The notes beneath the pieces are model-generated. The model was not told where the DNA came from, ran no database searches, and saw only the letters and a list, made by a program, of their open reading frames with translations. The translations under genes were made by a program, and so were the position numbers. Shown here piece by piece: positions 5,596-59,931 of a DNA stretch of 64,000 bases; the stretch's first letter is position 1; each line of letters opens with the position of its first letter. Source of the stretch: Candidatus Micrarchaeota archaeon (GTDB lineage: Archaea > Micrarchaeota > Micrarchaeia > Burarchaeales > JACRGF01); assembly GCA_016212395.1 (NCBI GenBank), contig JACRGF010000007.1:1910-65909 (forward strand), read 5' to 3'.

Positions 5596-5762
5596 GGCAT
5601 TGGCGGAATCGCGCATTACGGAAGGGAAGCCATACAAATTTACAGGCAGTTCACCCAACCAGAAGCGTAAAACGCTGAAACTTCGAAGCTTCAAAACTGC
5701 TAAACCTCGAGACTCCGAAACCACCTGACGCTAGCAGAGGCAGGAAATAAAAAAAAAAGGTT

Positions 5763-9530: not shown

Positions 9531-9704
9531 AGTTTTTCAACTTTTCTTTATTTTTTTTTCTATTCCTGCTTCTTCCTATTCTGTTTTTTTTCTTCTTTGT
9601 TTTTTTCCTTCTTTTATTTCTCGTATTTTTCTTTCCTGTTTTTTTTTATTTTTTCCTATTGCGTTTCTTCTTTTTCTCTTTTTTTTCTTCCTGTTTTTTT
9701 CTTT

Positions 9705-10544
9705 TTATTTCTTGTACTTTTTCAGCACTGTCGGCAGGTTGTTTGCAACGTCTGTTGCGAGGAGAGAGTAGCCGAGTTTTTTGAATGCTTCACTGCCAGC
9801 AGCGCCGTTGAGGAATGCAGCCATGCACGCAGCTTCGAACAAGGAATGCTTCTGCGATACAAGCGCGCCGAGCACTCCTGCTAGAACGTCGCCAGTGCCG
9901 CCGACAGTCATGCCTGCATTGCCGGTGCTTGAATAAGCAGTCTGTTCGCCGTCTGAAATAACATCTGTAGGGCCTTTCAGCAACACAACGCAACCTAACT
10001 TTTTTGCTGTTTTTTCTGCTTGCGCGCAACGCTCGCGCAATGAAGTTGAAGGAAGAAAGCCCGACAGGCGCTTGAACTCGCCGGCGTGTGGAGTTAAAAC
10101 GCTGTTGGAAGGAAAACGCGTGCTTGCATTCAACGCGTCAGCATCAACAATAAGAGGAACGTCAACAGACTTGAAAAAATAGGAAACGCAGGACAACGCT
10201 TCTTCATTTTTGCCCAAGCCGCTTCCAACAACAAAACAATCAACGCTCGACCGCAAGTTTAAAGCAACGCTTAAGCCTTTCTCGTTGAATTCTTCTCCTT
10301 CAAAATCACGCACTATAAAATCAGGGGAATAGCCTGCAACAGTCCGAGAAATATAATTTGGAACTGTGAGGTAAGCCAAGTCAGCGCCTGAACGCAACGC
10401 GCCAAAACCAACAAGAGCAGGAGCGCCGAAAAACAGCCTGCAACCGCCGACAACACCAACCCTGCCGTTAACGCCTTTGTGACTCGCAGGGTCAACTCGC
10501 TTCAAGTGCTTCAACACAAACTTGCTGGAAACTTCAAAAACCAT
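9705..10544 (-). CDS. ADP-dependent NAD(P)H-hydrate dehydratase (YjeF C-terminal / carbohydrate kinase family)
   Basis: Motifs SHKGVNGRVGVVGG...GAPALVGFGALRSGADL ... LLKGPTDVI ... GGTGDVLAG. Confidence 0.8.
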   Translation of the reverse strand: MVFEVSSKFVLKHLKRVDPASHKGVNGRVGVVGGCRLFFGAPALVGFGALRSGADLAYLTVPNYISRTVAGYSPDFIVRDFEGEEFNEKGLSVALNLRSSVDCFVVGSGLGKNEEALSCVSYFFKSVDVPLIVDADALNASTRFPSNSVLTPHAGEFKRLSGFLPSTSLRERCAQAEKTAKKLGCVVLLKGPTDVISDGEQTAYSSTGNAGMTVGGTGDVLAGVLGALVSQKHSLFEAACMAAFLNGAAGSEAFKKLGYSLLATDVANNLPTVLKKYKK

Positions 10545-12387: not shown

Positions 12388-12480
12388 TTAGAATCAGAAA
12401 TAATGTTTGTATAAACTCCTTTAAAAACACCCGACAAAACAACCAAACAAAAACAAACCAAAACCCCCAAACAAACAACA

Positions 12481-12642
12481 CACAACCACCAAAAACAAAA
12501 ACGTTTCGACTTGTTCTTATTTGTTTCGACTCGTTTCGCAATACGAAGCAAAACCACTCAAAACAACTTCAAAACTTCCAAACCCCAAAACTACAAAACG
12601 CCTAAACCTCTAATTTGAAACTCACAACCCCAAAAACAAAAC
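12481..12642. repeat. 162-nt intergenic repeat, copy A (near-identical to 24089-24250)
   Basis: By-eye alignment: cacaaccaccaaaa(a/c)caaaaacgtttcgacttgttct..gtttcgactcgtttcgcaatacgaagcaaaaccactc(a/g)aaacaacttcaaaacttccaaaccccaaaactacaaaac..cctaaacctctaatttgaaactcacaaccccaaaaacaaaac, with about 6 mismatches. Confidence 0.85.
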
Positions 12643-12894
12643 CACCAAGACGACCCAACCACTCAAAACCATGAAACTACAAAACACATAAACAAAACTC
12701 AAAATCCTAAATCACACACACCCCAAAAACACCAAAACCAAAAACCTCCAACACCCCCCAAACTCAAAACCGGAAACTGAAAACTTCGCCTCCTACCCAC
12801 CCCACTTCCACTAATCAACATAATAATAAAATAAAAATACGGGTAAACTACTCTAAAACTCCTTTAAACAACCAAAAGAAGTATTAATAAATAT

Positions 12895-12916
12895 TAATGT
12901 AACTATGGTTACATTA
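12895..12916. promoter_or_regulatory. Perfect 9-bp inverted repeat (TAATGTAAC-tatg-GTTACATTA) abutting the start codon of the 78-aa ORF; candidate operator
   Basis: Read directly from the sequence: taatgtaac tatg gttacatta, followed by ATG at 12916. Confidence 0.4.
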
Positions 12917-13523: not shown

Positions 13524-13683
13524 TGCTCTCACCTCTGAAAACAAAACTGGCGGAAATAGTATAATTCCTATTGTTTAAAATACTTTTCTCGAGTGGGTTT
13601 TTTTAGAGTTTTAAAGTTTTGAAAAGGGTGGTGTTTCTAAACTCCTAAACTCCAAAACTCAAAACAGTTTAAGGTGTGTTGTT

Positions 13684-15164: not shown

Positions 15165-15415
15165 GCATTGTCGTGCGTTGTTTTGTTCCTGTATTCGTTA
15201 TCTCCTGCTTGTTTTGCATTGTTTTTGTTCGCGTGTTGTTGTTTTTCACGCATTTTTTTTGTTTTTTTTTGTTTGTGTTTTTCGTTTTTTTCAGTTTTGT
15301 TCGTGCATTCCCTTTTCGTTTACTCTCCCATTGTTACTTTTCTCGTTCGCATACTCTTTATATTTTTTGTTTTTCCTTTATTTACCCATTGGTTTTCTTT
15401 TGAGGGTGGTGTGTT

Positions 15416-16336: not shown

Positions 16337-16437
16337 TTTAAACACTTCACAACAATTCGTATGTGGATGAACCAACGCTTCTGTGAATGAATTAAATCTG
16401 CTGCCAAGCGCCTGAGAAGCTGAGGGGGCCGGTTAAG

Positions 16438-16483
16438 AGTTTTGTAGTTTTGGGGTTTGGAAGTTTTGAAGTTGTTTCGAGTA
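16438..16483. repeat. Inverted 46-nt perfect copy of the core of the 162-nt repeat
   Basis: The sequence gagttttgtagttttggggtttggaagttttgaagttgtttcgagt is the reverse complement of 24164-24209. Confidence 0.85.
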
Positions 16484-16601
16484 GCTTGCGTGGAGTAAAA
16501 CGTTTAGAAGTTTCGAGGTTTTGGAGTTTAGCAGTTTTGAATAGCTTGTTCTAAGTTGTTTTGTTTGCATGCATTTTGACGAGAATGTTTTTGCTTTGAG
16601 T

Positions 16602-23439: not shown

Positions 23440-24087
23440 TTATTTTTTTAGTTCTTCATCTATCGCTTGTTTCAGTTGCTCGTACGAAGCAGGCGTTTGC
23501 TTTCCGTTCACGAAAACAGTTGGCGTAGCGCTTATGCCAATCTTGTTTCCCTCCTCAATGTCCTTCAACACTCGCGCGAACGCTTCCTGGCCGTTCAAGT
23601 CCCGCTGAAATTTCTCGACATCCAAGCCCAACTGCCCGGCGTAAGAAGAAAGCGACGCGTCGTCAAACACGCCTTGGTTTGCGAACAGCAAATCATGGTA
23701 CTCGAAAAACTTTCCCTGCGCGCCAGCAGCCTCTGAAGCAACAGCAGCCCTTCCCGAGGACGGGTGAATCTGGTAAGGCAAGAGAGGATTGTAATTCTTG
23801 TCAAGAGGAAAATGCTTGAAGTAAACTTTCACTTTAGTGCCGTACTCCTTCTCTATTTGTTGAAGAGTAGCCGCAGAACGCGCGCAGTAAGGGCACTGAA
23901 AATCGCTAAACTCAACGAGAGTGACTTTCGCGTTTTCTCCCCCAACAAACGGCTTGCCCTCCAAATCAAAAGAAGAGACAACAAGAGGACTGCCCGTGCT
24001 TCCTCCTAAACCAAGGCAACCGAACAAAAACAAGCCGAGCACTACGCACGAGAAAACAAGAAACGAAAAACGCGAATCAAAAACCAT
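23440..24087 (-). CDS. Membrane-anchored/secreted DsbA-family thiol:disulfide oxidoreductase
   Basis: N-terminal hydrophobic helix and the thioredoxin motif FSDFQCPYCARS. Confidence 0.8.
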   Translation of the reverse strand: MVFDSRFSFLVFSCVVLGLFLFGCLGLGGSTGSPLVVSSFDLEGKPFVGGENAKVTLVEFSDFQCPYCARSAATLQQIEKEYGTKVKVYFKHFPLDKNYNPLLPYQIHPSSGRAAVASEAAGAQGKFFEYHDLLFANQGVFDDASLSSYAGQLGLDVEKFQRDLNGQEAFARVLKDIEEGNKIGISATPTVFVNGKQTPASYEQLKQAIDEELKK

Positions 24088-24088
24088 T

Positions 24089-24250
24089 CACAACCACCAA
24101 AACCAAAAACGTTTCGACTTGTTCTCAGTTGTTTCGACTCGTTTCGCAATACGAAGCAAAACCACTCGAAACAACTTCAAAACTTCCAAACCCCAAAACT
24201 ACAAAACTCCTAAACCTCTAATTTGAAACTCACAACCCCAAAAACAAAAC
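24089..24250. repeat. 162-nt intergenic repeat, copy B
   Basis: Near-identical to 12481-12642 and in the same orientation. It starts 2 nt upstream of the dsbA-like start codon. Confidence 0.85.
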
Positions 24251-24276
24251 TTCAAAACTCCTAAACTGAAAACTTT

Positions 24277-33629: not shown

Positions 33630-33901
33630 ACGCGCACCTTCAAGCAAAACTTAAACGTTTCGAATCGTTTTGACTTGTTTTGCAGTAGTTTCGACCACTT
33701 GAAGCAATTCAAAACTGCATAAGCAATACAGCTGCAAAACAACTTAAACAACAATTCACACAAGCAATCAAAACTTCTCGAAACAAACCAAAGCAATTCC
33801 TGCAAATCATACACGCAAAACAATCCAGCAATGCTATAGCAAATTCTCTCGAACAAACTATAAAACTGTATCTTTTAAATAGCCTGATGCATACTCCTCG
33901 C

Positions 33902-38100: not shown

Positions 38101-38801
38101 CCCACAAGCAACTCAACGTCTTTTTCTTTCAACAGCCTGCAAAACTCTGCAAGCATCGCCTTCTCGTCCGCAAGAATTTTCACGAACTTCCGTGCGATGG
38201 GCTTCCACGAGAGCACTCCGCTCTCCTCGTCGGCAAAACTCACCATCACCACTGGGTCTATATTCTCGCGTGGCATTCCGCTCGGGTTGTACGTTTCAAT
38301 GTCAAAAGACATCAAGCGAAGGCTTGGAACAACTTCCTTCTCCTCTCCAATGCTCACGACGTTCTTTCCTTTTCTCTTTACTTCATACTCGTTGAACGGC
38401 GTGAGCTTTTTGTCAATCAAGTACCTTCTTCCGAACAAAATGTTGTCTTCATACGTTGCGCCGAACTCGCGCGCCTTCTCGCGCAAAAGCACGACGTGCG
38501 AAGGGTGCACGCACACTGCCCGCAGAACTTTCTTTTTCTCTCCAAGCAACTCCTTTTCAACTTCCTCTATCCTCTCAAACTTCACTTCATTTCCCTGGTT
38601 GTCCTTCACGCTTATTTTTTCAAGCTCTTTCCTCGCGTGCTCTAGTTCTCCCTTCTTGTTCACGTCAACAAAAAAATAGGGCTCGAACTTCTCGTCGTAG
38701 AGCCTGAAGAAACGCTTGCGCTTGAACACTAACCTAATCACTGCCCTTCCTGCCTTCGTAATGTAATCTGCATCAATAAGCATTGCCCGCAAGCTCTTCA
38801 T
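35109..38801 (-). CDS. polB: Family B DNA polymerase (intein-containing precursor, 1230 aa; extein about 809 aa)
   Basis: Exo I FDIETYN, Pol A DFRSLYPSII and Pol B KILSNSVYG are present. Pol C is split as YGD | intein | TDSVF. There is a C-terminal PIP-like KQATLGGW. Confidence 0.95.
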   Translation of the reverse strand: MKSLRAMLIDADYITKAGRAVIRLVFKRKRFFRLYDEKFEPYFFVDVNKKGELEHARKELEKISVKDNQGNEVKFERIEEVEKELLGEKKKVLRAVCVHPSHVVLLREKAREFGATYEDNILFGRRYLIDKKLTPFNEYEVKRKGKNVVSIGEEKEVVPSLRLMSFDIETYNPSGMPRENIDPVVMVSFADEESGVLSWKPIARKFVKILADEKAMLAEFCRLLKEKDVELLVGYNSAAFDFSYLKARAKALGKSLSFGRDGSGILLRRRGMVNTAKITGRIHVDLYPVIRFMGMIGALKGFRYTLGEAYSELVAGEKEGWKEEVEKREIWRMWDDEKQLPKLAEYSLKDAQATREIALKIMPLQYELCKLVKLPLFDVAGMTSGQLVEMLLLNKAHNAGMIAPNKPGGDEAEGRRDAVIEGAFVKMPTPGIYENLAVFDFRSLYPSIITSHNVDNATLNCSCCSKKEAFVSPNGHAFCSKKKGLIPNTLEELVERRKKLKGEIRECKDEGKLKMLEARSQALKILSNSVYGMFRFARARWYSRECGEAITAWGRHYINDVIEKAGKEGFEVTYGDSVTGDRFVTLLNPQGMVEIKRISELFEENSERSEKVGEKEVASLKGFKALGVDQLTGKTTWGNVKEAIRHKANKRVFKVSQKYGETRVTEDHSFMIEKNNQLVEAKPREMLENAMVRVERIPPLKQMQKIDFYELLKRYENAFVYKNRSKTRRVQLTPNGEHVFFGWMRKKSTVLLKRFIQVESKEFEALCRLLGAYIAEGSASTPETTTSRLGASISASDKAWLEQLKKDYHSLFSNVKASIIQSMKKQRQLNYTTMKGKKNSVTYVDKTLKLQMMNALSAVFFKQLCGQKSSGKKLPGFAFHVPEKYRKIILENFLKGDGSITKDPRYTEEYKQNNFTLETKSLQLACGLTLLLPMLGKKYSMRFRQDKQTYIITTCSKHTPKLHAQIEEQEYDGFVYDLNVEGTHNFVDSCGQILLHNTDSVFLQLGKKTREQALEFMRKVNAELPKGMELELEAFYPRGVFVGKKTGASGDGEKGAKKKYALLREDGKIKIRGFELVRRDWSDLAKETQSAVLESILKKGSKEKAVEIVKKVIKELKEGKVPLEKLVIHTQLRKKIGKYEILSPEVTAAIRAKEKGIRIEEGAVIDYVVGKSGGERVSDRSIVVELAKDYDPNYYIENQILPSVMKILSELGVDEHELKGLGKQATLGGW
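35811..37073 (-). mobile_element. Intein (421 aa) with a LAGLIDADG homing-endonuclease domain, inserted in polymerase motif C
   Basis: It begins with Ser (SVTGDRFVTLL) directly after YGD and ends LLHN, followed by a +1 Thr (TDSVF). Internal motifs LLGAYIAEGSAS and ENFLKGDGS are present. Confidence 0.85.
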
Positions 38802-42718: not shown

Positions 42719-43300
42719 TCAAACGCCTTTCTTTTTTATTACCGCGATTTCTCCGAGGCTGACTTCTCCTTCTATTGGCTTGTCGTTTATTCCCAAGTCT
42801 TCCATCATTTTCACTCGTTTTTCTTCGAGTTCTTTGCGTTTGCGTTCCCTGCGCGTTGCTTCGCGTGCTTCAGCATCCTTCTCGTTCAATTCGTCGCGGT
42901 ATGATTTTGCTTCTGCTTTCAACTGCTGTATTTCCTTCTCCAGCAAGTTCCTTTCGTCCGTCAATTGCCGAACGTCTCCTTCTACTAGGAATAGTTTGCG
43001 TCGTTTCCGTTCTATTTCGCCTGCTTTTTCGAGTTTTGCTTGAATGTCGCGGATTTCCTTCATCATTTTGCGTTCTGCCTGGAGGTTCGTGGACTCTGTC
43101 GCAATCCTGAACTCTATTTCGTTAAGCGTTCTTTTCAAGCGCCTGTACTCGTCAGTGTTTTCCCTCGACAGTATTTCCTTCAAGGCTTTCGCTTCGTAGT
43201 TCTTGTAGTTGAGCCTCGAATCGAGTTCTTTCGCCTTGCTTATCAGTTCAAACTTTCGTTTTTCCAAAGCGTCTATGCGTTGTTGTGCGTCTGTTTCCAA
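42719..43300 (-). CDS. Archaeal coiled-coil protein (COG1340-like)
   Basis: 193-aa highly charged heptad sequence. TTG start with a GAGGGG Shine-Dalgarno-like element upstream. Confidence 0.55.
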   Translation of the reverse strand: METDAQQRIDALEKRKFELISKAKELDSRLNYKNYEAKALKEILSRENTDEYRRLKRTLNEIEFRIATESTNLQAERKMMKEIRDIQAKLEKAGEIERKRRKLFLVEGDVRQLTDERNLLEKEIQQLKAEAKSYRDELNEKDAEAREATRRERKRKELEEKRVKMMEDLGINDKPIEGEVSLGEIAVIKKKGV

Positions 43301-43358
43301 AAAAAGCCCCTCATTCGAAACGTTTTTAACCCTTGTTTTTCATAATAGTTTGCTTTAT

Positions 43359-43490
43359 CGGCAAGCTATTTTGGCTTGCCGAGCATTCGACGTCAGTCGA
43401 ATTTTATGCTCGACTTCTTCGATCTGCCTTCGGGCAGCAAAACTGGTCGCCTTGCCAGCGCTTTCGAGCGCTGGCCTAATTTTCACGACC
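43359..43490. ncRNA. Candidate structured RNA or palindromic-element cluster (four consecutive perfect hairpins); identity and strand unknown
   Basis: Hairpins: cggcaagc/gcttgccg (43359-43381); gagcat[tcgac-gtca-gtcga]..atgctc (43381-43411); ctgcc-TTCG-ggcag (43424-43437); ggtcg..[gccagcgc-tttcga-gcgctggc]..cgacc (43445-43490). They lie in a 366-nt gap with no credible ORF. Confidence 0.3.
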
Positions 43491-43666
43491 CCTAAAATCC
43501 TTCATAACCGTTTTCCCAAATCCACTGGTTTTATTGCTTACTCTCAGTGTTTTAGTTCTTCACTCTCGTTGTTTATCTCAAGCATTTGCAATTCATCAAC
43601 TGAAGTAACTTTTTGAAGGTTTTCATTAGCAGTTCAAGTTTTATAAACAAATCGCTGGATGCAATC

Positions 43667-44069: not shown

Positions 44070-44094
44070 CGTTCGCGTGTTAATCTCGTGTTGT

Positions 44095-45123
44095 ATGCTT
44101 GAAATTGACGGCAGTACGAGTGAGGGTGGAGGGCAGATTCTTCGCGTTGCTTTAGCGCTTGCAAGCGTTTTGAAAACTCCTTTGAAAATTTCAAGCATTC
44201 GCGCGAACAGGAGGAATCCGGGCTTGCAGGCTCAGCATTTGGCTGGCGTGAGAATACTGCAGAAAATATGCAACGCGAAAGTTGAAGGCGCTGAACTGCA
44301 TTCCACTCAATTGTCTTTCGAACCGAACAACATTGCAGGCGGAGTTTATTCTTTTGATGTCGGCACTGCCGGAGCGGTTTCGCTCGTGTTGCAAGCAGTT
44401 CTCCCAGTGCTCGCGTTCGCCCCCCGGAAAACCAGCATCACTCTAACTGGCGGTACGCACGTGAACTGGTCTCCTACTATTGATTATATTGAGAACGTGT
44501 TCAAGCCTCTTGTTGCGAGAACTGGTTTCGATTTTGACTTAAGCGTTGAAAAATACGGTTTTTACCCTAAGGGTGGCGGGAGGGTTGTCGTTGAAGCAAC
44601 TCCAGCGCGAGAGTTGAATGGAATAACTTTGGTGGGCAAGGGCGAGTTGTTGGGAGTAAATGGAATTTCTGTTGCTGGAAGCCTGCCTGAGCACGTTGCA
44701 AAACGCCAACGCGAGGGCGTTTCAAGCGTTTTTTCTTCTGCTGAAGTTCGGTTGGTTAACGCTGAAACTGCTTGCCCTGGAACTGCTGTTACGTTGTGGG
44801 CTGAGTTTGAGAATGGCTTGCTTGGCGCGAGCGCGTTGGGAGAGAAAGGAAAGCCTGCAGAGCAAGTTGGCAGGGAAGCTGGAGAGTTGCTGAAGAAAGA
44901 GTTAAGCTCGAGTGCGTGTGTTGATGTGCATGCTGCTGACCAGTTGATGGTGTTCGCTGCATTAGCAAAAGGCGACACTGTTTACAGAACGTCTGAAGTT
45001 TCAAGCCATGCTAAGACTAACGCGTGGCTTATAGAGAAAATTTGCGGAAGCAAAATCGTTTTAAACGAAGGCGAAAAAACAATTTCTATTAAAGGACTTG
45101 GAATTGAAGGGTTGGAAAAATGA
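44095..45123 (+). CDS. rtcA: RNA 3'-terminal phosphate cyclase
   Basis: Sequence MLEIDGSTSEGGGQILRVALALAS...IRANRRNPGLQAQHL. Confidence 0.9.
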   Translation: MLEIDGSTSEGGGQILRVALALASVLKTPLKISSIRANRRNPGLQAQHLAGVRILQKICNAKVEGAELHSTQLSFEPNNIAGGVYSFDVGTAGAVSLVLQAVLPVLAFAPRKTSITLTGGTHVNWSPTIDYIENVFKPLVARTGFDFDLSVEKYGFYPKGGGRVVVEATPARELNGITLVGKGELLGVNGISVAGSLPEHVAKRQREGVSSVFSSAEVRLVNAETACPGTAVTLWAEFENGLLGASALGEKGKPAEQVGREAGELLKKELSSSACVDVHAADQLMVFAALAKGDTVYRTSEVSSHAKTNAWLIEKICGSKIVLNEGEKTISIKGLGIEGLEK

Positions 45124-48479: not shown

Positions 48480-48974
48480 ATGTTTTCGTCGAATAAGTTG
48501 TTTCAGGTGGCCTGCCTGCAACAATTGCAATCTGTTCGCGAGGTTGATCCCTCGTTCATGCCGTTCGACGAGATAGAGCGGAGGCTGCGCGCTGATTTTG
48601 ACAAATTGTCTAAGCAGAAGAACACTCGGCAAGTGGAGCATGCTGACAAGCTGTTGATGTGCGAGCTTGCGATAGACCATTTGAATGCTTACAAGGAAAG
48701 CGCTGAAGAACTCGAACGCCTAGTTGCGTGTTACAAGCGCGCGAGCGCTTCCTCTAAACAACACAGTGCTACTCTCAAGAGGAGAGTTGCTGCGTACAAG
48801 CGTGCTCTCTCGTTGCTGAACATTGCTTTGAATGTCCACTTCTCGCGCAGGCAAAAATTGCGCGCGCAAAAGAAAAGAATTCGGCTCCAGCTTTCCGCTT
48901 GCTCTGAGTCCATCGCGCAATTCAAGAACGCAGTCAGAGGCATCTCGTTCTCGCTGAAAAAAAGAAAAGACTGA
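48480..48974 (+). CDS. Hypothetical helical/coiled-coil protein
   Basis: About 164-aa ORF starting at the ATG at 48480, basic and helical. No motif recognised. Confidence 0.4.
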   Translation: MFSSNKLFQVACLQQLQSVREVDPSFMPFDEIERRLRADFDKLSKQKNTRQVEHADKLLMCELAIDHLNAYKESAEELERLVACYKRASASSKQHSATLKRRVAAYKRALSLLNIALNVHFSRRQKLRAQKKRIRLQLSACSESIAQFKNAVRGISFSLKKRKD

Positions 48975-49018
48975 CCGAAACTACTCAAGACTGGAAACCC
49001 AAAACTGAAAACTGTTTA

Positions 49019-49167
49019 CGGGCCCGACGGGAGTTTCAGGGTTTAGAAGTTTTGATGTTTTGCAGTTTCGCTTGTTTTGAAAATTCTGCCTGAACTTCTA
49101 AACTCTTTCGAACCCGCGACTTCTTGGTCCGAAGCCAAGCGCTCTATCCAAGCTGAGCTACGGGCCC
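49019..49167 (-). tRNA. tRNA-Arg (anticodon UCG) with a 74-nt intron (49033-49106) between positions 59 and 60
   Basis: Minus-strand read: GGGCCCG TA GCTC AGCTTGGATA GAGC G CTTGG CTTCGGA CCAAG AAGTC GCGGG TTCGAA [intron] T CCCGT CGGGCCC G. The acceptor stem is a perfect 7 bp. The intron ends pair as GTTTAGAAGTT/AACTTCTAAAC (11 bp). Confidence 0.75.
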
Positions 49168-49264
49168 GCAAGATTTGTCTTGAATGGTTTTGTCTGGTTG
49201 GTTTTGACTGGTTCTGTCTTATTTTGCTGTTTTCGTTCTTTTCGAGAAGTATTTTGTGCTGAAC

Positions 49265-49295: not shown

Positions 49296-49490
49296 ATGTC
49301 GTTTTGGGAGTTTGCTGGAAAGAACAGCGGGAAAGGATTGATCGTCGGCGGTGTTGCTGTCGGAGTTGCTACTGCAGCGCCTGTGCTTGGAAACCAGATT
49401 GCTTCAGCGTTGCCGCCTGGCGCTGGGTTGGCTGCAGGAGTCGGCATGATCGCGGTAGGCACTGGGCTGGAATTAATAGGCGGCCTTTAA
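49296..49490 (+). CDS. Small Gly/Ala-rich two-helix membrane protein (candidate VirB2/CedA1/TedC-like pilin)
   Basis: 64-aa ORF MSFWEFAGKNSGKG|LIVGGVAVGVATAAPVLG-NQIASALPPG-AGLAAGVGMIAVGTGLELIGGL. It has a strong TATA box and sits first in the VirB4 module. Confidence 0.5.
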   Translation: MSFWEFAGKNSGKGLIVGGVAVGVATAAPVLGNQIASALPPGAGLAAGVGMIAVGTGLELIGGL

Positions 49491-49500
49491 CCTGCCATTA

Positions 49501-49552
49501 ACGCGCAAAAAAATAAAACGCAACATCAACAGCATCTTTTTTTTCTGCGCGT
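49501..49552 (+). terminator. Hairpin plus T8 tract immediately after the pilin-like gene
   Basis: acgcgcaaaaaaa (49501-49513) pairs with ttttttctgcgcgt (49539-49552). A run of 8 T residues lies at 49537-49544. Confidence 0.4.
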
Positions 49553-49773
49553 GTTTTTTCTCGTTCAGTTTTGTGTGTTGTCCTGTTTTTTTCTTTTTTT
49601 CTCTACACTTTTTTTCTGTTTTGTTCTTTTTGTCGTTTTTTTTTCTGCGCGTGTTTTTTCTGTTTTGTTCGTTTTTTTTAGGGTTTTTTCTTTTTTTCTG
49701 TTTGTTTCTCTTTTTTCCTGCGTTCAGCAAGTTTTTTATACGGTTGAACGCTTATTCTTTCGGGAGGTTGTTC

Positions 49774-50652
49774 GTGGCTTACAAGACGCCTAAGGAAATC
49801 GAGCAGTACCGGCAGAAATTCTTGTTTGGAAAGACGCAGTCCGAGGCAGCGATTTTCTTGGGCGCGTTCACCGCAGGCTTTATCACAGCTTACGCTTACT
49901 CTTTTTCTTTTGCTTCAGTCCTTGCAGGCGCAGGCATTGCTTTGTTCGGCTATTTGTGGGTGTTTCATGATTTCGGAAAGCGTTTGCTTGACTTGCATGC
50001 TTACCAGTCGAGCGTGAAGAAAGCGAATTTTACTGACTTGAGTTCAGCGAAATTTCTCGGGGTTAAGGACGTGCGCGACGACGCTATTTTTTTGAACGAC
50101 AATTCGCTTGTTTCGCTCATTCAAGTAATCCCGCTGGATTTTGATGTTCTCGAGCCTGAGAGAAAGCAGGCTATAATCGCGAATTATAAAAAGTTTCTCG
50201 ACGGGTTGGATTATCCGATTGAGATTGTGTGCAGGACTGTGGACTTGAATTTAGAGGAGTATTTCAAGGCGCACAGGCGTTCTACTGAAGCGTTGAACAA
50301 TCCTGCTTTGTTGAAGCGTTTCGAGAAGCTTGAAAAATTCCTGCGCGGGTACATTAAGGAGAACGAGGTGAAGGACCGTGTTTTCATTGTTGCGTTGAGC
50401 GAGCGGATGCGCCCGCTTTCGAGTGCTGCGAAGTTCGACAAGCGCATAGAACAGGAAGTGTTCGCAGAGGCGCGAAAGTCTTTGGACGTGAAGACCGAGA
50501 CTACGTTGAACGCGTTGAAGCAGTGCATGCTTCAGTGCAGGCGCTTGAAGTCAAGCGAGCTTGTCGCGATGCTCTCTTCGATTTTCACTGGAAGCGTGAA
50601 CGTGAGTGAAGATTACTTGTTTCCGATAACTGACTGCAACGGAGAAAAATGA
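49774..50652 (+). CDS. PrgI/VirB3-like two-TM protein fused to a VirB4 N-domain-like region
   Basis: GTG start with GGAGG 7 nt upstream. The sequence AYKTPKEIEQYRQKFLFGKTQSEAAIFLGAFTAGFI... fits the PrgI-family N-terminal pattern. Then LGVKDVRDDAIFLNDNSLVSLIQVIPLDFDVLEPERKQAIIANYKKFLDGLDYPIEIV follows. Confidence 0.6.
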   Translation: MAYKTPKEIEQYRQKFLFGKTQSEAAIFLGAFTAGFITAYAYSFSFASVLAGAGIALFGYLWVFHDFGKRLLDLHAYQSSVKKANFTDLSSAKFLGVKDVRDDAIFLNDNSLVSLIQVIPLDFDVLEPERKQAIIANYKKFLDGLDYPIEIVCRTVDLNLEEYFKAHRRSTEALNNPALLKRFEKLEKFLRGYIKENEVKDRVFIVALSERMRPLSSAAKFDKRIEQEVFAEARKSLDVKTETTLNALKQCMLQCRRLKSSELVAMLSSIFTGSVNVSEDYLFPITDCNGEK

Positions 50653-50795
50653 AGGCAGAGAAAAAACGTAAAACGCGTTGTTCACGCGTGAATTGTTTTG
50701 GAGTTTTGTGGTTTTGTAGTGTCGTGGTTTTTTGTGTGAATTCGAAACTTCGAAACTGCAAAACTCGAAACTTGCAATTGTTTTGGCTGGTGTTC

Positions 50796-53519
50796 ATGGT
50801 GGGAAGCGTTCAGGTCAGCGACACGTTTGTTCAGACGGGCGATTTGCTTAACCGCCAGCTTGGCATAGTTGGCGTCTCGCGCGAGTTGAAGCGCAATGCT
50901 TTCCCTAACTTGTTCGAGTCTGCTTCAAGCATTGACTTCAAGTTGAGCGTGTCTCCTTCAAATGCTGACAGCGAGTTAAGCGAATTGTCGCAGATTGCAA
51001 AGCTTGATGCCGACGATTCGAGGCAGTCTGCTGCTGTGCGCACTCTGCAAAAGCTTCAGGCAGGAGAGCGGGTTTTCGAAGTGTCAGCTTACTTGAACGT
51101 GAAGCGAAGAAAGTCTGGCGACGCGAACTGTGATGTTGAAGAGCTTGACAAGACGTTTGCTGCAGTACACAATACTGTTGCAGAGAACGGCATGGTGTGC
51201 AAGCCTTTGTTTGCCACTGGCTTGAACGGTTTTTTGTGCACGCTTCCATTCTTTTCCAACAAAGTCCAATGCAGCAGGAAATTCACTTCCTCTGCCGCTG
51301 CCTCTGCTTTTCCATTCATAAAATCTCGCAACGGAACATCGCGCGAGGCGTTTGAGGCGCTGCAAGGCATTCAAAAATTGTCTCCTCGGAAAAAAGAGGA
51401 AAAGCCGGACTTGAAAATTTTGCAGGCTCAAGTTGCAGCGCACAGGCAGGCGATAGACGCGCTTGCGAATTCTGGAACGCTTGCAAGCAGCGTTTCGAAA
51501 CTGCTTTCTTTTTTTTCATTCAGCAAGCAAGGTGGCAGGCAGCAGGCGAAGCAAAGCGCGAGCCTGCTTCACACCCTCATCACTCCTTCTTTCATTGACA
51601 ATAAGCCGGGTGAAATTCGGATTGACGAGTACCACGAGAAAATGCTTGTTGCTGCTGATTATCCTGACTCGATGGAGGAAGGATGGCTGACTGACTTGGT
51701 GAAGCTGAACAAGAAATTCGATTTTGCAATGCACGTTTCACCGCACGACGCGGCAGTGATTGAAACAATGCTTACGTTCAAGCTCGCTAAAATGAAGGCA
51801 GAGGAAATTTCAGCGCGCAGGCACCTTGTTTCCCAGCTTGGGCAAATGGGCCAGACGCTTGACACTCCTGACCTTATTCGCTTGAAAGCGCAAATCTCTG
51901 ATTTGGAGGCGACGCTTGCAAACATTCGCAGCGGGAAAAACAAAGTGTACGATTTTGGCTTGTATTTCGTCGTGAAAGACACGCGCGCGAGGGAGCTTCA
52001 GCTCAACAACGAGACTATTCGAAGAAAACTAAATTCCATTAAAATTCGGCCTGCGCAGCTTGCGCACAGGCTCGAGCAGGGAATAAAAACAATGCTTCCA
52101 TTCTGTTCAGACAAGCTGAAGAGCGTGTTCAAGCTTCCGACTGACAATGTTGCAGCGTGCTTTCCGTTCACTTCCTCCTTCCTCGTGCTCGACAGCGACG
52201 ACTCCGTCCTGCTCGGGTTCAACAAGGACACGCGCGCCCCAATCATTCTCGACTTGTTCGGGGAGCGGATGCATAACTTCAACAGTGTTATTGTCGCGAA
52301 AAGCGGGAGCGGAAAATCCACTTTCACGAAGCTCCTCATCTCGCGCCTCGTGCTGCGCGGAGCGCGCGTTTACGTTATCGACCCTACGAGAATGCCTGGC
52401 TTTGATTTTTCGGAGTATGCGCCAGTATGCCTTGCGTCTGGAGGCGAAGTGATTGGCTTGTCTCCTGACAGCGAGTGTTCGCTCAACTTGTTTGACTTGA
52501 TGGGTTTTGACTTGGATTCAAAGCTTCAAAGCCTTGAAATAGTTTTCTCCAAACTGCTCGGGCAAATGACTGACGATCAAATGCGCGTTCTAAGAAAGGC
52601 ATTGCGCCTCGCGTACGCGAACAAGAAAATAACTCACGATGACGCAACCACGCTGGCGCGCGAGCCGCCTAAATTCTCTGACTTGTACGACTCAGCAAAG
52701 CAAATAGCTTTTTCAGCATCAAAGCGAAAGAAGCCGTCGAAGCGATCTGCATTCGTCGATGTCGTGCCGCAGGACAAGGCGCCTGCAGAGTGGCTTCAAA
52801 GCAGCCTTGAAGAATACGTGTTCGGCTCCCGCCGCTACCTAAACAAGCACTCAAACATCAACGTGCAAAGCCCGTTCATCGTCTTCGACGTTTCAGGCCT
52901 GCCTGAAAACCCCGGGCAAAGCGATTCAGGAGTGCGCGCTGCCTACATGTACGCAATTCTTTCATTCGTGAACAAGCTCATGATGGAAGAGGAAAAAATG
53001 GGCTTGAAGAAAACGCGCAAGCTCCTGGTAGTGGATGAGGCTTGGAGAATGCTTGCAAGCGAGGCTGAAAGCAAGTACTTGTTCAACTTTGCGCGCGTGT
53101 GCAGAAAATACCATTTGTCGCTCGTGCTCATCACACAGTCGCTTCTCGACATGCAGGACGCGCGCGTTCGCAACGCAATTGTCCAGAATACCGACTGGAA
53201 GCTGTTCCTGCGCCAGGACACTACTGCGATAGACGCGACTGCCGACATGGTAAAGCTCACGCAAGAAGAAAAAAACATTCTCACCACTTCAGATAAAGGG
53301 GAAGGAATCCTGCTGCTTGGAGGAGAGCACATTCCGTTCAAAAGCGTTTTCTCGCAAGAGGAAAAAGCGCTCGTTACAACAGCTCCGAAAGACCTTATCG
53401 CGTTCGAACAGAGCCTGAAAACCCTGGCGAACAGCAAGTCGCGGAAGAAGCAGTCAAAGAAAGAAGCGTTGGACGAACTCCGCAAGCTACAGAAAAAACT
53501 GGCAGGTGAACGAACGTGA
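50796..53519 (+). CDS. VirB4/TraC/TrbE-like type IV secretion ATPase
   Basis: Walker A VIVAKSGSGKSTF and Walker B KLLVVDEAWRML, plus LVLITQSL. A VirB4 mid-domain pattern IRIDEYHEKMLVAADYPDSMEEGWLTDL is present. An alternative start at 50649 overlaps the upstream stop (ATGA) but reads through a repeat element. Confidence 0.85.
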   Translation: MVGSVQVSDTFVQTGDLLNRQLGIVGVSRELKRNAFPNLFESASSIDFKLSVSPSNADSELSELSQIAKLDADDSRQSAAVRTLQKLQAGERVFEVSAYLNVKRRKSGDANCDVEELDKTFAAVHNTVAENGMVCKPLFATGLNGFLCTLPFFSNKVQCSRKFTSSAAASAFPFIKSRNGTSREAFEALQGIQKLSPRKKEEKPDLKILQAQVAAHRQAIDALANSGTLASSVSKLLSFFSFSKQGGRQQAKQSASLLHTLITPSFIDNKPGEIRIDEYHEKMLVAADYPDSMEEGWLTDLVKLNKKFDFAMHVSPHDAAVIETMLTFKLAKMKAEEISARRHLVSQLGQMGQTLDTPDLIRLKAQISDLEATLANIRSGKNKVYDFGLYFVVKDTRARELQLNNETIRRKLNSIKIRPAQLAHRLEQGIKTMLPFCSDKLKSVFKLPTDNVAACFPFTSSFLVLDSDDSVLLGFNKDTRAPIILDLFGERMHNFNSVIVAKSGSGKSTFTKLLISRLVLRGARVYVIDPTRMPGFDFSEYAPVCLASGGEVIGLSPDSECSLNLFDLMGFDLDSKLQSLEIVFSKLLGQMTDDQMRVLRKALRLAYANKKITHDDATTLAREPPKFSDLYDSAKQIAFSASKRKKPSKRSAFVDVVPQDKAPAEWLQSSLEEYVFGSRRYLNKHSNINVQSPFIVFDVSGLPENPGQSDSGVRAAYMYAILSFVNKLMMEEEKMGLKKTRKLLVVDEAWRMLASEAESKYLFNFARVCRKYHLSLVLITQSLLDMQDARVRNAIVQNTDWKLFLRQDTTAIDATADMVKLTQEEKNILTTSDKGEGILLLGGEHIPFKSVFSQEEKALVTTAPKDLIAFEQSLKTLANSKSRKKQSKKEALDELRKLQKKLAGERT

Positions 53520-55408
53520 ACAACAAAAAAAACAAGCTGCTTGAAAGCATCGAGCTTGAAATGCATAAGGCAAGTGAAGCACAGCGCGCTCAGGAAGAAC
53601 TTCAAGCGAAAAAAGAAGCTGAAGGCAACTCTTCAGAACAATCTCCTCCCTCCACTGGTTTTATTTCTTCCCTGCTCGCTCGCATTCCCTCGTTCGGAAA
53701 CTGGAACGGAGGCGAAGCAATTCAGACAGAAGAAGCGCGCACTTCACATCCCCCAGAACTTTCTTCCCAAGCTAAAAATGATTTTAAAAAAACCCAGAAG
53801 AAAATAGCGCGTCTCGAGAATTCCCTCGCGCGCGAAACCGTCTGCCAAGCCAAGCTCGCTGTTGAGCAGAAGGAAGCTGAACGCCAAGTCCTTGAACTCC
53901 AATCCTCCTTAAAGTCAGCTCGCGATGTAAGCGCGCGTGCGTATGAAGAGCTTCACAGCAAGCAGGCAGAAGCAGACTCATTTATTTCACAGCTTGAATT
54001 TGAGGTGAACAACCCTCAGCTTTCAACTGCGCGCGCGGAGTTCGAAGAAAAAAAACGCGAGCTTTCAGAGCTCGCGAAACAGCTTGTGCAGGCTAAAAGC
54101 AAGGACAAGCAGTCAAAAGCCTTGCTTGCTTCAACTCAAGGCAGAATTTCCGAAAAGAAAAAAAGCATTTCAACTCTAGAACAGTCTATTTCCTCCAGTG
54201 GCGAAAAAGTCGCGTTGCTTGGCAAAACGATTTACGACTTGGAGGAAACGTTGCGCAATGGAAGGGAACAAGTGCAAGCACTCGAGCAAAAACTTTCTGA
54301 AAAACAGCAAGCAATTCAAGCGCTTCAGCATTCCAAGCTTGAACTTGAAAAAAACTTTTCAGAAGCAAGCGTTCTCCTCGCGCAATCTGAAGCTGATGAA
54401 GCTTCTCTTCAAACGCAAGCGCGCCGGCTTCGAAGCAGGCTTGCTTCGAGGAAAAGAAAGCTTTCAGCCTGCCAGCAGTCGCTTCAATCAATAACCGAAC
54501 AGCTTTCTTCCATGGAACAGCGCGTTCCTTCAACTGAACGCGTTTTGAGCGAGTTGTTGCGCCAGCTTCACGAGTTCGAGCAGAAAACTTCTGAAAAACA
54601 GGCTGTGCTCTCCCATCTTGAAGAAAACAAAAAAACGTTAAGCGAGCAAGTGAAAGAAAAGCGCAAAGCTTCGCAATCTGCGGCAAATCGCGTTGAAGAG
54701 CTCGAGAACGAAACTGCCAGCCTCACCCGCTCTATAAAGCGGTTCGATGAAAAAGAAAAGCATTTGAAGGCGAAAGCAGAATCTCTTTTGCAACAGCAAA
54801 AGTCTTTAGGGCAACTCGCTGTTGAAGCAGAGAAAAAATCTGCACACGCTGAACGCTCGCTTGAACCGCTTGCTGTTGAAGCGGAGAAAAAATCACTTCA
54901 ACAAGAACGAGAAGAGTTGGCAGATCTTCCAACGAAACCAAAATCAATTCCTCAAGGCGCGCAGCAGCTCGAGCAGTTGACTCAAAATATTTCTTCAGAT
55001 TCTTTCACGCGAGAGTTCATCAACTCCTGCCAGTTCGGCGAGCGTTTTACTGAAAAACACTCTGCTTCCTTGCACTCTCGCGGATTCAAGAAAACAAGCT
55101 CTTCAAACCCTCTCGTTCGCCTGCTTCTCTCCAAACTCGTAGGGCAACACGAGAATCTTTCATTTTTCATGAAGCCGAGCAGGAAATCTTCTTCGGTTGA
55201 AAAAGAGTTTGCCGTGTGGCTTTCAGTAATGCTTTTGGGGAAAAAACACGGGGCAGTAAAGATTCACGAGCGCGGGCCTCACGACGTTACTTTCAGCGAA
55301 GGAAAGCTTGCAATCAATCTTTCAAAACAAGAAAACACTGTCGTGCTGGCTGATTCCAATTCTGAAAAACTGCTTTCAAGGGAAGAACTTGACCAGTTGT
55401 TCGACTAG
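53516..55408 (+). CDS. Long coiled-coil protein (about 450 aa) with a C-terminal globular domain, translationally coupled to the VirB4-like gene
   Basis: GTG start overlapping the VirB4 stop (GTGA). Contains an internal duplication LAVEAEKKS...LAVEAEKKS. Confidence 0.6.
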   Translation: MNNKKNKLLESIELEMHKASEAQRAQEELQAKKEAEGNSSEQSPPSTGFISSLLARIPSFGNWNGGEAIQTEEARTSHPPELSSQAKNDFKKTQKKIARLENSLARETVCQAKLAVEQKEAERQVLELQSSLKSARDVSARAYEELHSKQAEADSFISQLEFEVNNPQLSTARAEFEEKKRELSELAKQLVQAKSKDKQSKALLASTQGRISEKKKSISTLEQSISSSGEKVALLGKTIYDLEETLRNGREQVQALEQKLSEKQQAIQALQHSKLELEKNFSEASVLLAQSEADEASLQTQARRLRSRLASRKRKLSACQQSLQSITEQLSSMEQRVPSTERVLSELLRQLHEFEQKTSEKQAVLSHLEENKKTLSEQVKEKRKASQSAANRVEELENETASLTRSIKRFDEKEKHLKAKAESLLQQQKSLGQLAVEAEKKSAHAERSLEPLAVEAEKKSLQQEREELADLPTKPKSIPQGAQQLEQLTQNISSDSFTREFINSCQFGERFTEKHSASLHSRGFKKTSSSNPLVRLLLSKLVGQHENLSFFMKPSRKSSSVEKEFAVWLSVMLLGKKHGAVKIHERGPHDVTFSEGKLAINLSKQENTVVLADSNSEKLLSREELDQLFD

Positions 55409-59701: not shown

Positions 59702-59931
59702 TCTCGCTTCCGGATGCATAAATAAAAACAACGCTTCCAGCATTTAATTAGTTTTGTTCTAGGGTTTACGTTTCGTCTAGGGGGTTGTGAAGTCTTGTAG
59801 TTTAGGGGTTTTGGAGTTTCGAGCTTTGCAGTTGTTTTTGCCTATACAGTTGTTTCTTGAGTTTGATTCGTTTTGCAGTTGTTTTGTTCTTTGTGTGGGG
59901 TTTTTATTCCAGTTTTTGCATAACTTTTTTC

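What the first reader, a model, noticed from the sequence alone, without database searches (positions are those of the whole stretch)
49019..49167. tRNA-Arg(UCG) with a 74-nt intron at 59/60 that is built from the genome's dispersed repeat family
The exons give a perfect tRNA-Arg with acceptor GGGCCCG/CGGGCCC and T-loop TTCGAA|T. The intron (AGAGTTTAGAAGTTCAGGCAGAATTTTCAAAACAAGCGAAACTGCAAAACATCAAAACTTCTAAACCCTGAAAC) has 11-bp terminal inverted repeats. It is made of the same CAAAAC/GAAAC/TAAAC modules that fill many intergenic regions in this window. This raises the possibility that non-canonical tRNA introns here arise from insertion of a MITE-like repeat element that the splicing endonuclease can remove.
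Basis: partly seen in the sequence, partly recalled or inferred. Interest (0 to 1): 0.65.

Follow-up and report, generated by a model that had tools for sequence, protein, structure and literature searches.

The report
Repeat-filled T-loop intron in tRNA-Arg
An archaeal arginine tRNA gene is interrupted in its T-loop by a spliceable intron whose interior is built from the same 8-base repeat modules that litter this genome's intergenic DNA, showing repeats remodelling, and in a sister genome apparently creating, tRNA introns.

Summary
Window 49167-49019 (minus strand) is a tRNA-Arg(UCG) gene: 61-nt exon, 74-nt intron at 59/60, 14-nt exon. The junctions form a strict bulge-helix-bulge motif. ARAGORN calls the in-silico spliced product tRNA-Arg.

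The 3' two-thirds of the intron is an array of period-8 'NAAACYNC' modules. The same modules form at least 10 other arrays or hairpins in the window's intergenic DNA (11 strict arrays against 0.06 expected). Shuffle tests support the similarity, but only at module level. No donor copy, target duplication or transposase was found.

The 59/60 intron is not new. The nearest relative has one at the same site with an unrelated interior, and other DPANN tRNA-Arg(UCG) genes have 21-113-nt introns there. So the repeats colonised or replaced the interior of an old intron.

The relative's orthologous gene also carries an extra 78-nt D-loop intron, absent here. It resembles this intron, and one of its arms matches 31/36 the spacer just 3' of the window's tRNA. 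That supports repeat-driven intron gain in this lineage.

This is a known kind of intron (ARMAN-type T-loop introns) with a new twist. Splicing is untested.

The parts
49019..49167 (-). tRNA-Arg(UCG) gene with one intron
   Evidence: ARAGORN calls the spliced product tRNA-Arg(tcg).
49107..49167 (-). Exon 1 (61 nt, tRNA positions 1-59; ends TTCGAA)
49033..49106 (-). 74-nt BHB intron at 59/60
   Evidence: H helix UUCG/UGAA, bulges AA|A and AC|U, h' with 12 of 13 pairs, h is the 5-bp T-stem.
49019..49032 (-). Exon 2 (14 nt: U60, T-stem 3' strand, acceptor 3' strand, G73; no encoded CCA)
49093..49105 (-). h' 5' arm (intron nt 2-14, GAGTTTAGAAGTT; two GTTT-type modules)
49039..49051 (-). h' 3' arm (intron nt 56-68, AACTTCTAAACCC)
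49033..49081 (-). Octamer-module array inside the intron (TTCAAAAC AAGCGAAAC TGCAAAAC ATCAAAAC TTCTAAAC CCTGAAAC). The last module runs into exon 2 (GAAAC|TCC).
   Evidence: Depth is about 4.5-5x single copy.
48975..49018 (-). 44-nt 3' spacer/trailer with GTTT-type modules. Positions 48978-49013 match the 3' arm of the relative's D-loop intron 31/36.
   Evidence: The relative's spacer is only 10 nt.
49174..49213 (-). 5' leader with a tandem 14-mer (ACCAGNCAAAACCA) of AAAC type, about 45 nt longer than in the relative
   Evidence: Leader-trailer pairing is predicted.
16433..16541 (-). Intergenic octamer arrays. Positions 16502-16541 are the intron's best match (85% over 41 nt).
24054..24275 (+). 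About 200-nt dispersed repeat copy (hairpin plus AAAC array)
   Evidence: The core is at about 15x single-copy depth.
12434..12870 (+). Long A+C-rich non-coding tract. It holds the second copy of the 200-nt repeat (12449-12642) and further arrays.
13601..13665 (+). Hairpin-type family member (GTTT arm, loop, AAAC arm)
50692..50777 (.). Inverted pair of arrays (hairpin) between the TraC-like and VirB4-like genes. An array sits at the same position in the relative L050.
5662..5721 (+). Array just downstream of the tRNA-Glu gene (GTTT type on the tRNA's strand)
59791..59820 (-). Short array between divergent genes
33650..33800 (+). Looser family member (GTTT arm followed by AAAC modules)

Best explanation
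This is a working tRNA-Arg(UCG) gene of an uncultured groundwater archaeon, probably DPANN and Micrarchaeota-like. Its T-loop is interrupted between positions 59 and 60 by a 74-nt bulge-helix-bulge intron.

Shown:
- The exons join to a canonical cloverleaf.
- The junctions form a strict hBHBh' motif. The T-stem is h. U54-G57 pair with UGAA of the intron to give H. Two 3-nt bulges carry the splice sites. A 12/13-bp stem is h'.

Inferred from the established archaeal pathway:
- The tRNA splicing endonuclease EndA cuts in both bulges.
- An RtcB-type ligase joins the exons and probably circularises the intron.

Shown by comparison:
- The intron's site is inherited. The nearest relative and several other DPANN tRNA-Arg(UCG) genes have introns at 59/60.
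- Only the splice-determining ends are shared. The interior is free to vary.

Shown for this lineage:
- The interior (the h' arms plus a 6-module tail) is made of the octamer modules NAAACYNC and their complement.
- The same modules form multi-copy arrays and hairpins in the organism's intergenic DNA, and they flank this very gene (leader AAAC-type, trailer GTTT-type).

Inferred:
- The repeat family invaded or replaced the interior of a pre-existing intron, by insertion, gene conversion or slippage at DNA level.
- An intron interior is a neutral safe site as long as the BHB is kept.
- The family's AAAC/CUGA modules are complementary to the conserved T-loop (UUCGAA) and D-loop (UCAG).

The sister lineage's extra D-loop intron, built of related modules, shows that the same process can also create new introns.
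For: - Gene and BHB.
- The sequence is real in four independent metagenome runs with no variants.
- Repeat family: 11 strict arrays against 0.06 expected. TRF reports period-8 arrays. Dispersed copies are 92-98% identical. The core sits at about 15x depth in two runs.
- Intron membership. One search gives 0/20,000 and 0/500 shuffles. Depth is about 5x over intron nt 35-74 but about 1.3x over nt 14-34.
- The family is lineage-specific. None of 19 other loci (L002-L014 and L017-L021 cited here) has a strict array, and the relative's 19 kb has one relaxed array.
- An old site: L002 has ...GAAAC|TCCCGTCGGGCCCG with an unrelated interior. L008/L014 have 21-nt introns, L007/L017 113-nt, and the L012 contig starts inside the intron.
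- Intron gain by related sequence: the L050 D-loop intron is 78 nt, with H TCAG/CTGA and a 12-bp h'. It is similar to the window intron (global z 4.4, local z 5.8; at most 1/2000). Its 3' arm matches window 48978-49013 31/36, the best place in the whole window (0/5000 shuffles).
- Wider context: a 53/54 intron is shared at 86% between tRNA-Glu here and tRNA-Pro in L051. T-loop introns are known in ARMAN-2 (PMC3239211) and intron transposition in Thermoproteales (PMC4090602).
Against: - There is no RNA evidence of splicing.
- EndA and RtcB are not in the window.
- No donor copy exists. Permuted module order scores as well in 109/719 cases, so in-situ slippage from a common module pool cannot be told apart from insertion.
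- The other DPANN 59/60 introns were found with a pattern that required GAAAC + exon 2. Their shared ends are therefore partly by construction, and how often intron-less orthologues occur is unknown. Independent gains at a hot spot are not excluded.
- The relative's 59/60 intron is known only for its last 59 nt, because the contig ends there.
- The taxonomic placement rests on tRNA-level matches and ARMAN-like intron positions, not on marker genes.
Confidence: 0.62

Rival explanations
1. The 59/60 intron arose de novo in this lineage when a MITE-like repeat element inserted into an intact tRNA-Arg gene. The element's inverted repeats and GAAAC end happened to give a BHB.
For: The intron has module content and hairpin architecture like family members 13601-13665, 50692-50777 and 24105-24250. 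The sister genome's D-loop intron shows that such an insertion can happen. Position 59/60 is a recurrent intron site, so independent gains are conceivable (PMC4090602, PMC3239211).
Against: The nearest relative already has an intron at exactly this site, and so do more distant DPANN tRNA-Arg(UCG) genes. There is no target-site duplication, no second full-length copy and no transposase.
Confidence: 0.13
2. No transfer at all. The intron interior and the intergenic arrays look alike because unconstrained A-rich DNA in this genome evolves under the same slippage and mutation bias, which generates period-8 AAAC arrays in situ. In the intron, the GAAAC end that the BHB requires acts as the seed.
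For: The similarity is only at module level, and module order carries no signal. Tandem duplication is visibly active at this locus, as the 14-mer repeat in the leader shows. The last module coincides with the mandatory GAAAC|UCC junction.
Against: The modules within an array differ from each other rather than being homogeneous copies. Long dispersed copies with 92-98% identity and about 15x depth show real duplication and dispersal. A specific 36-nt segment, including non-module sequence, is shared between the relative's D-loop intron and the window's tRNA flank. The relative with similar base composition lacks the arrays almost entirely.
Confidence: 0.2
3. The modules are there for a function in RNA. 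For example, the AAAC array pairs with the GUUU-type trailer or with GUUU arrays in other transcripts. Alternatively it binds a protein that recognises the modules, so that the intron (linear or circular) or the pre-tRNA is regulated.
For: The leader (AAAC type) and trailer (GTTT type) are predicted to pair. An array is kept at an orthologous intergenic position in the relative. Archaeal tRNA introns can encode functional RNAs; the C/D-box guide in the tRNA-Trp intron is established knowledge.
Against: The relative's orthologous intron lacks the modules. Array orientation shows no consistent relation to flanking genes. The intron has no C box. No expression data exist.
Confidence: 0.08
4. The locus is a decaying or unexpressed tRNA pseudogene whose T-loop was disrupted by repeat DNA.
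For: There is no expression evidence. No obvious TATA box lies close to the 5' end. Standard tRNA finders miss it.
Against: The cloverleaf is perfect and the BHB is strict. The exons and the H helix are conserved in the relative, where UGAA becomes CGAA and still pairs. The intron is fixed without variants in four samples. T-loop introns are the norm in these lineages: every tRNA found in the related loci has one.
Confidence: 0.04

Closest known systems
Non-canonical T-loop BHB introns of Candidatus Micrarchaeum acidiphilum (ARMAN-2): pre-tRNA-Cys 59/60 and pre-tRNA-Pro 53/54 + 59/60 (Fujishima et al. 2011, PMC3239211)
   Same: The intron position is the same (59/60) and so is the motif (strict hBHBh'). 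The superphylum is probably the same. The related locus L051 even repeats the 53/54 + 59/60 double-intron tRNA-Pro architecture.
   Different: The isoacceptor differs (Arg UCG). The intron interior here is built of a dispersed intergenic repeat family, which that paper does not describe. The organism's endonuclease type is unknown.
[quoted passage not shown] 2010, as summarised in PMC4090602)
   Same: Related intron sequences sit at different positions or in different tRNAs. Here these are the window 59/60 intron against the relative's D-loop intron, and the Glu 53/54 intron against the Pro 53/54 intron. A DNA-level gain is inferred and the mechanism is unknown.
   Different: The phylum differs. 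Here the intron sequences also resemble non-intron, intergenic repeats and the tRNA's own flank. That points to a source outside the intron pool.
tRNA-Thr intron gain and gene splitting by a mobile element in Caldiarchaeum subterraneum (Sugahara et al. 2012, PMC3293823)
   Same: tRNA introns differ in presence or absence between close genomes, and this is linked to repeated DNA.
   Different: That element is 1.8 kb and encodes a recombinase. Here the repeats are 8-nt modules in arrays of 30-200 nt, with no associated gene.
MITEs and REP-like small palindromic repeats
   Same: They are short, non-coding, hairpin-forming, multi-copy and intergenic, and they break assemblies.
   Different: There are no defined ends, no target-site duplication and no cognate transposase. 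The copies are heterogeneous arrays of modules rather than copies of one unit.

Membership tests
Archaeal BHB tRNA intron (non-canonical position 59/60) | Removing the insert yields a canonical cloverleaf tRNA | tested here: met
   ARAGORN calls the 75-nt spliced product tRNA-Arg(tcg) and does not call the unspliced gene. Rfam's tRNA model matches the exon-1 part.
Archaeal BHB tRNA intron (non-canonical position 59/60) | Two 3-nt bulges carry the splice sites. They are separated by a 4-bp helix and flanked by helices h and h'. | tested here: met
   H is UUCG/UGAA (4/4, one G-U). The bulges are AA|A and AC|U. h' has 12/13 pairs and h has 5 bp. The MFE fold contains h and h'.
Archaeal BHB tRNA intron (non-canonical position 59/60) | The intron is cut by the splicing endonuclease and the exons are ligated in vivo | not testable with these tools
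   No RNA runs hold the locus.
Archaeal BHB tRNA intron (non-canonical position 59/60) | The host encodes EndA and an RtcB ligase | not tested
   Neither is among the window's ORFs that were scanned. Only RtcA (44077-45123) is present. The rest of the genome was not available.
MITE (miniature inverted-repeat transposable element) | Terminal inverted repeats | tested here: inconclusive
   An 11-bp perfect inverted repeat exists, but it is subterminal (3 nt and 8 nt from the ends) and coincides with the h' helix that splicing needs.
MITE (miniature inverted-repeat transposable element) | Target-site duplication flanking the insert | tested here: not met
   The junctions are TTCGAA|AGAG and TGAAAC|TCCCG. 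The shared GAA(A) is the complement required by the palindromic TTCGAA, not a flanking duplication.
MITE (miniature inverted-repeat transposable element) | Several full-length, near-identical copies in the genome | tested here: not met
   The 5' 18-mer is unique at up to 3 mismatches. In four metagenome runs no other contig covers the whole intron at 85% or more. The similarity is at module level only.
MITE (miniature inverted-repeat transposable element) | A related autonomous element or transposase | tested here: not met
   No transposase or integrase domain appears in the window ORFs. The IS605 of the relative L002 has no counterpart in the window, and its ends are unrelated to the modules. 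Only 64 kb could be examined.
Transposed tRNA-intron family (Thermoproteales type) | Significantly similar introns at non-orthologous positions or in different tRNAs | tested here: met
   The window 59/60 intron against the L050 D-loop intron gives z 4.4 (global) and z 5.8 (local), with at most 1/2000 shuffles as good. Against the orthologous L002 intron there is no similarity. The Glu 53/54 and Pro 53/54 introns are 86% identical over 71 nt.
C/D-box sRNA-encoding tRNA intron | C box (RUGAUGA) and D box (CUGA) in the intron | tested here: not met
   The intron sequence has CUGA near its 3' end but no UGAUGA. Rfam finds no sRNA there.

The most novel reading that the evidence does not exclude
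The octamer-module hairpin repeats are a small duplicative or mobile DNA family that both creates and remodels BHB introns. Its AAAC/CUGA modules are complementary to the invariant T-loop (UUCGAA) and D-loop (UCAG) sequences. A copy landing next to those sequences therefore forms the 4-bp H helix and its own h' stem at once, and is spliceable from the start. That would give a concrete DNA-level mechanism and source for the unexplained gain and 'transposition' of non-canonical archaeal tRNA introns.
Probability: 0.25. Interest if true: 0.8.

Novelty: new variant of a known kind. Interest (0 to 1): 0.55.

Why it matters
[quoted passage not shown] The Thermoproteales 'intron transposition' was inferred from intron-to-intron similarity, with no known source or mechanism (PMC4090602).

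Here one tRNA locus, compared between two related genomes, shows four things:
- an old intron whose interior has been exchanged for the genome's own dispersed repeat modules;
- a second intron, made of related modules, present in one genome and absent in the other;
- the same 36-nt segment as intron arm in one genome and as gene flank in the other;
- repeat modules whose sequence is complementary to the conserved tRNA loops.

That turns the question into something testable by a whole-genome census and by tRNA-seq in a natural population.

There is also a practical point. Standard tRNA finders miss both tRNA genes of this window, which fits the reported incomplete tRNA sets of DPANN genomes (PMC5829648).

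Tried and rejected
- ARAGORN on the window found nothing. Rfam at gathering and E-value thresholds found only the exon-1 fragment, and chance hits to the tRNA-Glu intron hairpin.
- A genome-contig scan with a 43-nt exon-1 pattern gave 0 hits. The source genome is therefore not among the GTDB representatives, and intron-less orthologues could not be sampled.
- A metagenome-contig scan with the 22-mer core of the dispersed repeat gave 5 unrelated low-complexity hits.
- A viral-contig scan with a degenerate 4-module pattern gave only perfect tandem octamers and telomere-like C4A4 repeats. This gave no evidence of a viral origin.
- No RNA-seq runs hold the locus.
- A specific donor array was sought and rejected by the module-permutation control.
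- A consistent orientation of the arrays relative to transcription (the terminator hypothesis) was not found. AAAC lies on the + strand in most intergenic regions between 2 and 34 kb, whatever the gene direction.
- No link to the IS200/IS605 element of the relative was found.
- C/D-box guide RNA in the intron: there is no C box.
- Target-site duplication: none.
- A BHB around the 49-nt insert in the conserved non-coding block at 43.4 kb: none in any register.

Full report
**1. What is there**

On the minus strand, window 49167-49019 reads GGGCCCGTAGCTCAGCTTGGATAGAGCGCTTGGCTTCGGACCAAGAAGTCGCGGGTTCGAA | 74-nt insert | TCCCGTCGGGCCCG.
- ARAGORN finds no tRNA in the window. Rfam's tRNA model matches only 49109-49167 (34.3 bits).
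- After in-silico removal of the insert, ARAGORN calls a 75-nt tRNA-Arg(tcg) with a normal cloverleaf.
- The insert lies between positions 59 and 60 of the T-loop.
- The junctions form a strict hBHBh' motif:
  - the T-stem (5 bp) is h;
  - U54 U55 C56 G57 pair with U-G-A-A (intron nt 69-72), giving H;
  - A58 A59|A1 and A73 C74|U60 are the two 3-nt bulges;
  - intron nt 2-14 pair with nt 56-68 (12 of 13), giving h'.
- The minimum-energy fold of the whole precursor contains h and h' (-52.2 kcal/mol, z -3.7).
- The sequence is present without variants in contigs of four groundwater-metagenome runs.

**2. The repeat family is real**

- Tandem Repeats Finder reports many period-8 arrays in intergenic DNA.
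- Chains of at least 3 AAAC at exact 8-nt spacing occur 11 times in the window, against 0.06 in local shuffles. The module consensus is NAAACYNC.
- Many members combine a GTTT-type arm, a loop and an AAAC-type arm, and so form hairpins (13601-13665, 24105-24250, 50692-50777).
- Copies at 12449-12642 and 24054-24250 are 92% identical over 197 nt. A 50-nt piece at 16433-16482 is 94-98% identical to them.
- In two runs the core of this repeat has about 15 times the single-copy depth, and the Logan contigs break there.
- AAAC/GTTT words are 3-10 times denser in many intergenic regions than in coding DNA. Their strand shows no constant relation to gene direction.
- None of the 19 other loci examined has a strict array. 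These include 12 kb, 6.5 kb and 20 kb from the two nearest relatives.
- One relaxed array lies in L050, at the position orthologous to 50692-50777.
- The window encodes ordinary archaeal chromosomal genes: PolB with an intein, HerA-NurA, FBPase V, PyrBI, DTD2, RtcA, Nre and a VirB4/TraC-like cluster. It has no transposase, integrase or EndA.

**3. The intron belongs to the family, at module level**

- Intron nt 26-74 read TTCAAAAC AAGCGAAAC TGCAAAAC ATCAAAAC TTCTAAAC CCTGAAAC.
- A chain of five AAAC at period 8 never arises in 20,000 dinucleotide shuffles; the maximum is 3.
- With its own locus masked, the intron's best blastn hit is 41.1 bits (16541-16502, 85% over 41 nt). Shuffles give mean 25.4, sd 2.2 and maximum 34. 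Further hits fall on all the main arrays.
- Contigs at least 85% alike pile up to about 4.5-5x depth over 49031-49072, but only about 1.3x over 49073-49093. The 5' 18-mer is unique.
- Control: permuting the order of the six modules gives an equal or better best score in 109 of 719 permutations. So the window holds no specific donor, and the likeness lies in the modules and the architecture.
- The last module, GAAAC|TCC, spans the 3' splice site and fits the consensus exactly. Its GAA is also what must pair with U54 U55 C56.

**4. The site is old and the interior is not**

- The neighbouring 574-aa protein has one close homologue, at 66% identity. Its contig L002 starts inside an intron...CTCTTGGAAAACGAAAC|TCCCGTCGGGCCCG. 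The relative therefore has an intron at the same site. Here CGAA replaces UGAA, which still pairs.
- The known 59 nt of that intron are A-rich and show no significant similarity to the window's intron.
- A scan of GTDB genomes for GAAAC + exon 2 found tRNA-Arg(UCG) genes with 59/60 introns in several lineages:
  - two Anstonellaceae MAGs, with 21-nt introns plus a canonical intron;
  - an Aenigmatarchaeota MAG, with a 113-nt intron and a relaxed BHB;
  - a Micrarchaeota MAG whose contig starts in the intron.
- Because the pattern demanded GAAAC, the shared ends are partly by construction. The frequency of intron-less orthologues is unknown; a 43-nt exon pattern found nothing.
- T-loop introns at 53/54 and 59/60 are documented for ARMAN-2 (PMC3239211). 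Disrupted tRNA genes are common in DPANN (PMC5829648).

**5. A gain in the sister genome**

- The VirB4-like protein has an 87% homologue in the same run as L002. Its contig L050 ends in the 5' part of the orthologous tRNA: GGGCCCGTAGCTCAGCT | 78 nt | TGGATAGAGCGTCTGGCTTCGGACCAG.
- The 78-nt D-loop insert is absent from the window and from the other DPANN orthologues.
- It has H = UCAG/CUGA, bulges CU|A and AC|U, a perfect 12-bp h' (GAAGUUUUCAGU/ACUGAAAACUUC) and a weak h.
- It is a near-palindrome of GTTTTC/GAAAAC modules.
- It is significantly similar to the window's 59/60 intron: global z 4.4 with 0/2000 shuffles as good, local z 5.8 with 1/2000. Both begin AGA and end CUGAA(A)C.
- Its 3' arm matches window 48978-49013 at 31 of 36 positions, ungapped. 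The score is 26, against a shuffle maximum of 21 (0/5000), and the next best place in the window scores 18.
- That segment fills the 44-nt spacer immediately 3' of the window's tRNA. The relative's spacer is 10 nt.
- The window's 5' leader is also about 45 nt longer, through a tandem 14-mer.
- In total the locus shows four independent indels of repeat-type DNA between two genomes whose proteins are 66-87% identical.

**6. Further context**

- The window holds a second cryptic tRNA, tRNA-Glu(UUC), at 5934-5763 on the minus strand. It has a 97-nt strict-BHB intron at 53/54.
- That intron is 86% identical over 71 nt to the 53/54 intron of a tRNA-Pro(UGG) in the NCBI relative L051 (E 3e-14). The tRNA-Pro also has a 59/60 intron.
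- Every tRNA found in the related loci has a T-loop intron.

**7. Interpretation**

- The tRNA and its BHB intron are an ordinary feature of this kind of archaeon.
- What is new is that the intron bodies are drawn from the same lineage-specific repeat modules as the intergenic DNA and the gene's own flanks, and that they turn over quickly.
- For the 59/60 intron the best reading is colonisation or replacement of the interior of an old intron.
- For the relative's D-loop intron the best reading is a recent gain.
- The mechanism (insertion, conversion or slippage) is not resolved.
- The complementarity of the modules to UUCGAA and UCAG is a plausible reason why such inserts are immediately spliceable, but this is inference.
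- Splicing itself is untested, because no RNA runs exist.

**8. Verdict**

- This is a new variant of a known kind.
- Interest is moderate. It rises if a whole-genome census shows that the repeat family is the general source of this lineage's introns.

Noticed in passing
window 5763-5934 (minus strand); intron 5783-5879: A second cryptic tRNA gene, tRNA-Glu(UUC), has a 97-nt strict-BHB intron at 53/54. The intron contains a CTTTTTCTTTCTTTTT/AAAAAGAAAGAAAAAA hairpin. ARAGORN and Rfam both miss the gene. The intron is 86% identical over 71 nt to the 53/54 intron of a tRNA-Pro(UGG) in L051 8566-8812 (minus strand), which also has a 58-nt 59/60 intron.
   Followed up: yes
window 12449-12642, 24054-24250, 16433-16482: A dispersed repeat of about 200 nt (hairpin plus octamer array) is 92-98% identical between copies. 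Its core has about 15x single-copy depth in two metagenome runs, and it breaks the Logan assemblies. Its function and means of spread are unknown.
   Followed up: partly
window 43289-43568 (minus strand); L002 8640-8870: A non-coding block is almost 100% identical over about 190 nt between the two relatives, far more conserved than the neighbouring proteins. It has GC-rich hairpins with GAAA/CGAAG loops and ends in a T7 run, so it is probably an unrecognised structured RNA. Rfam has no hit. The window carries a 49-nt insert flanked by ATAAA that has no BHB. In L002 an IS605 (TnpA+TnpB) sits next to the block.
   Followed up: partly
L007 3155-3343 and L017 (whole, 1045 nt): Two MAGs share an identical 113-nt 59/60 intron, exon 2 and 3' flank, but these are joined to different 5' parts. 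One is tRNA-Arg(TCG). The other has an apparent CTT (Lys) anticodon and a canonical intron. This could be a shared 3' half, a recent duplication or an assembly chimera.
   Followed up: no
L012 709-944: A tRNA-Gly(GCC) carries a T-loop intron, and a second copy of its 3' exon (ATCCCGGCGAGCGCA) lies about 120 nt downstream.
   Followed up: no
window 49298-55408 versus L051 8952-15427: The cluster of 64-aa, TraC-like, VirB4/TraG-like ATPase and coiled-coil genes, followed by FAD-oxidase/CCG and Nre, is syntenic in the relatives. It abuts tRNA-Arg in the window and in L050, but tRNA-Pro in L051. A rearrangement breakpoint therefore lies at the tRNA gene.
   Followed up: partly
window 12388-12915: A 528-nt non-coding tract has almost only A and C on the + strand (36 AAAC), followed by an AT-rich stretch with inverted repeats. 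Cumulative GC skew peaks near 8-10 kb. A replication-related region is possible but was not examined.
   Followed up: no
window 48950-49262 (minus strand): The AAAC-type 5' leader and the GTTT-type 3' trailer of the tRNA-Arg gene are predicted to pair with each other (MFE -84.2 kcal/mol, z -2.7). This looks like a processing stem around the tRNA.
   Followed up: partly
window 9542-9723, 15253-15304, 49586-49720: A second low-complexity family (T-rich, CTTTTTC/TTTTCTGTT type) resembles the polypurine/polypyrimidine hairpin of the 53/54 introns and the A-rich interior of the relative's 59/60 intron. The last of the three tracts lies inside the called start of the TraC-like ORF.
   Followed up: no
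window 35109-38801 and 44077-45123: The family-B DNA polymerase gene carries an intein. An RNA 3'-phosphate cyclase gene (RtcA, which makes the end chemistry used in tRNA ligation) lies 4 kb from the intron-containing tRNA.
   Followed up: no
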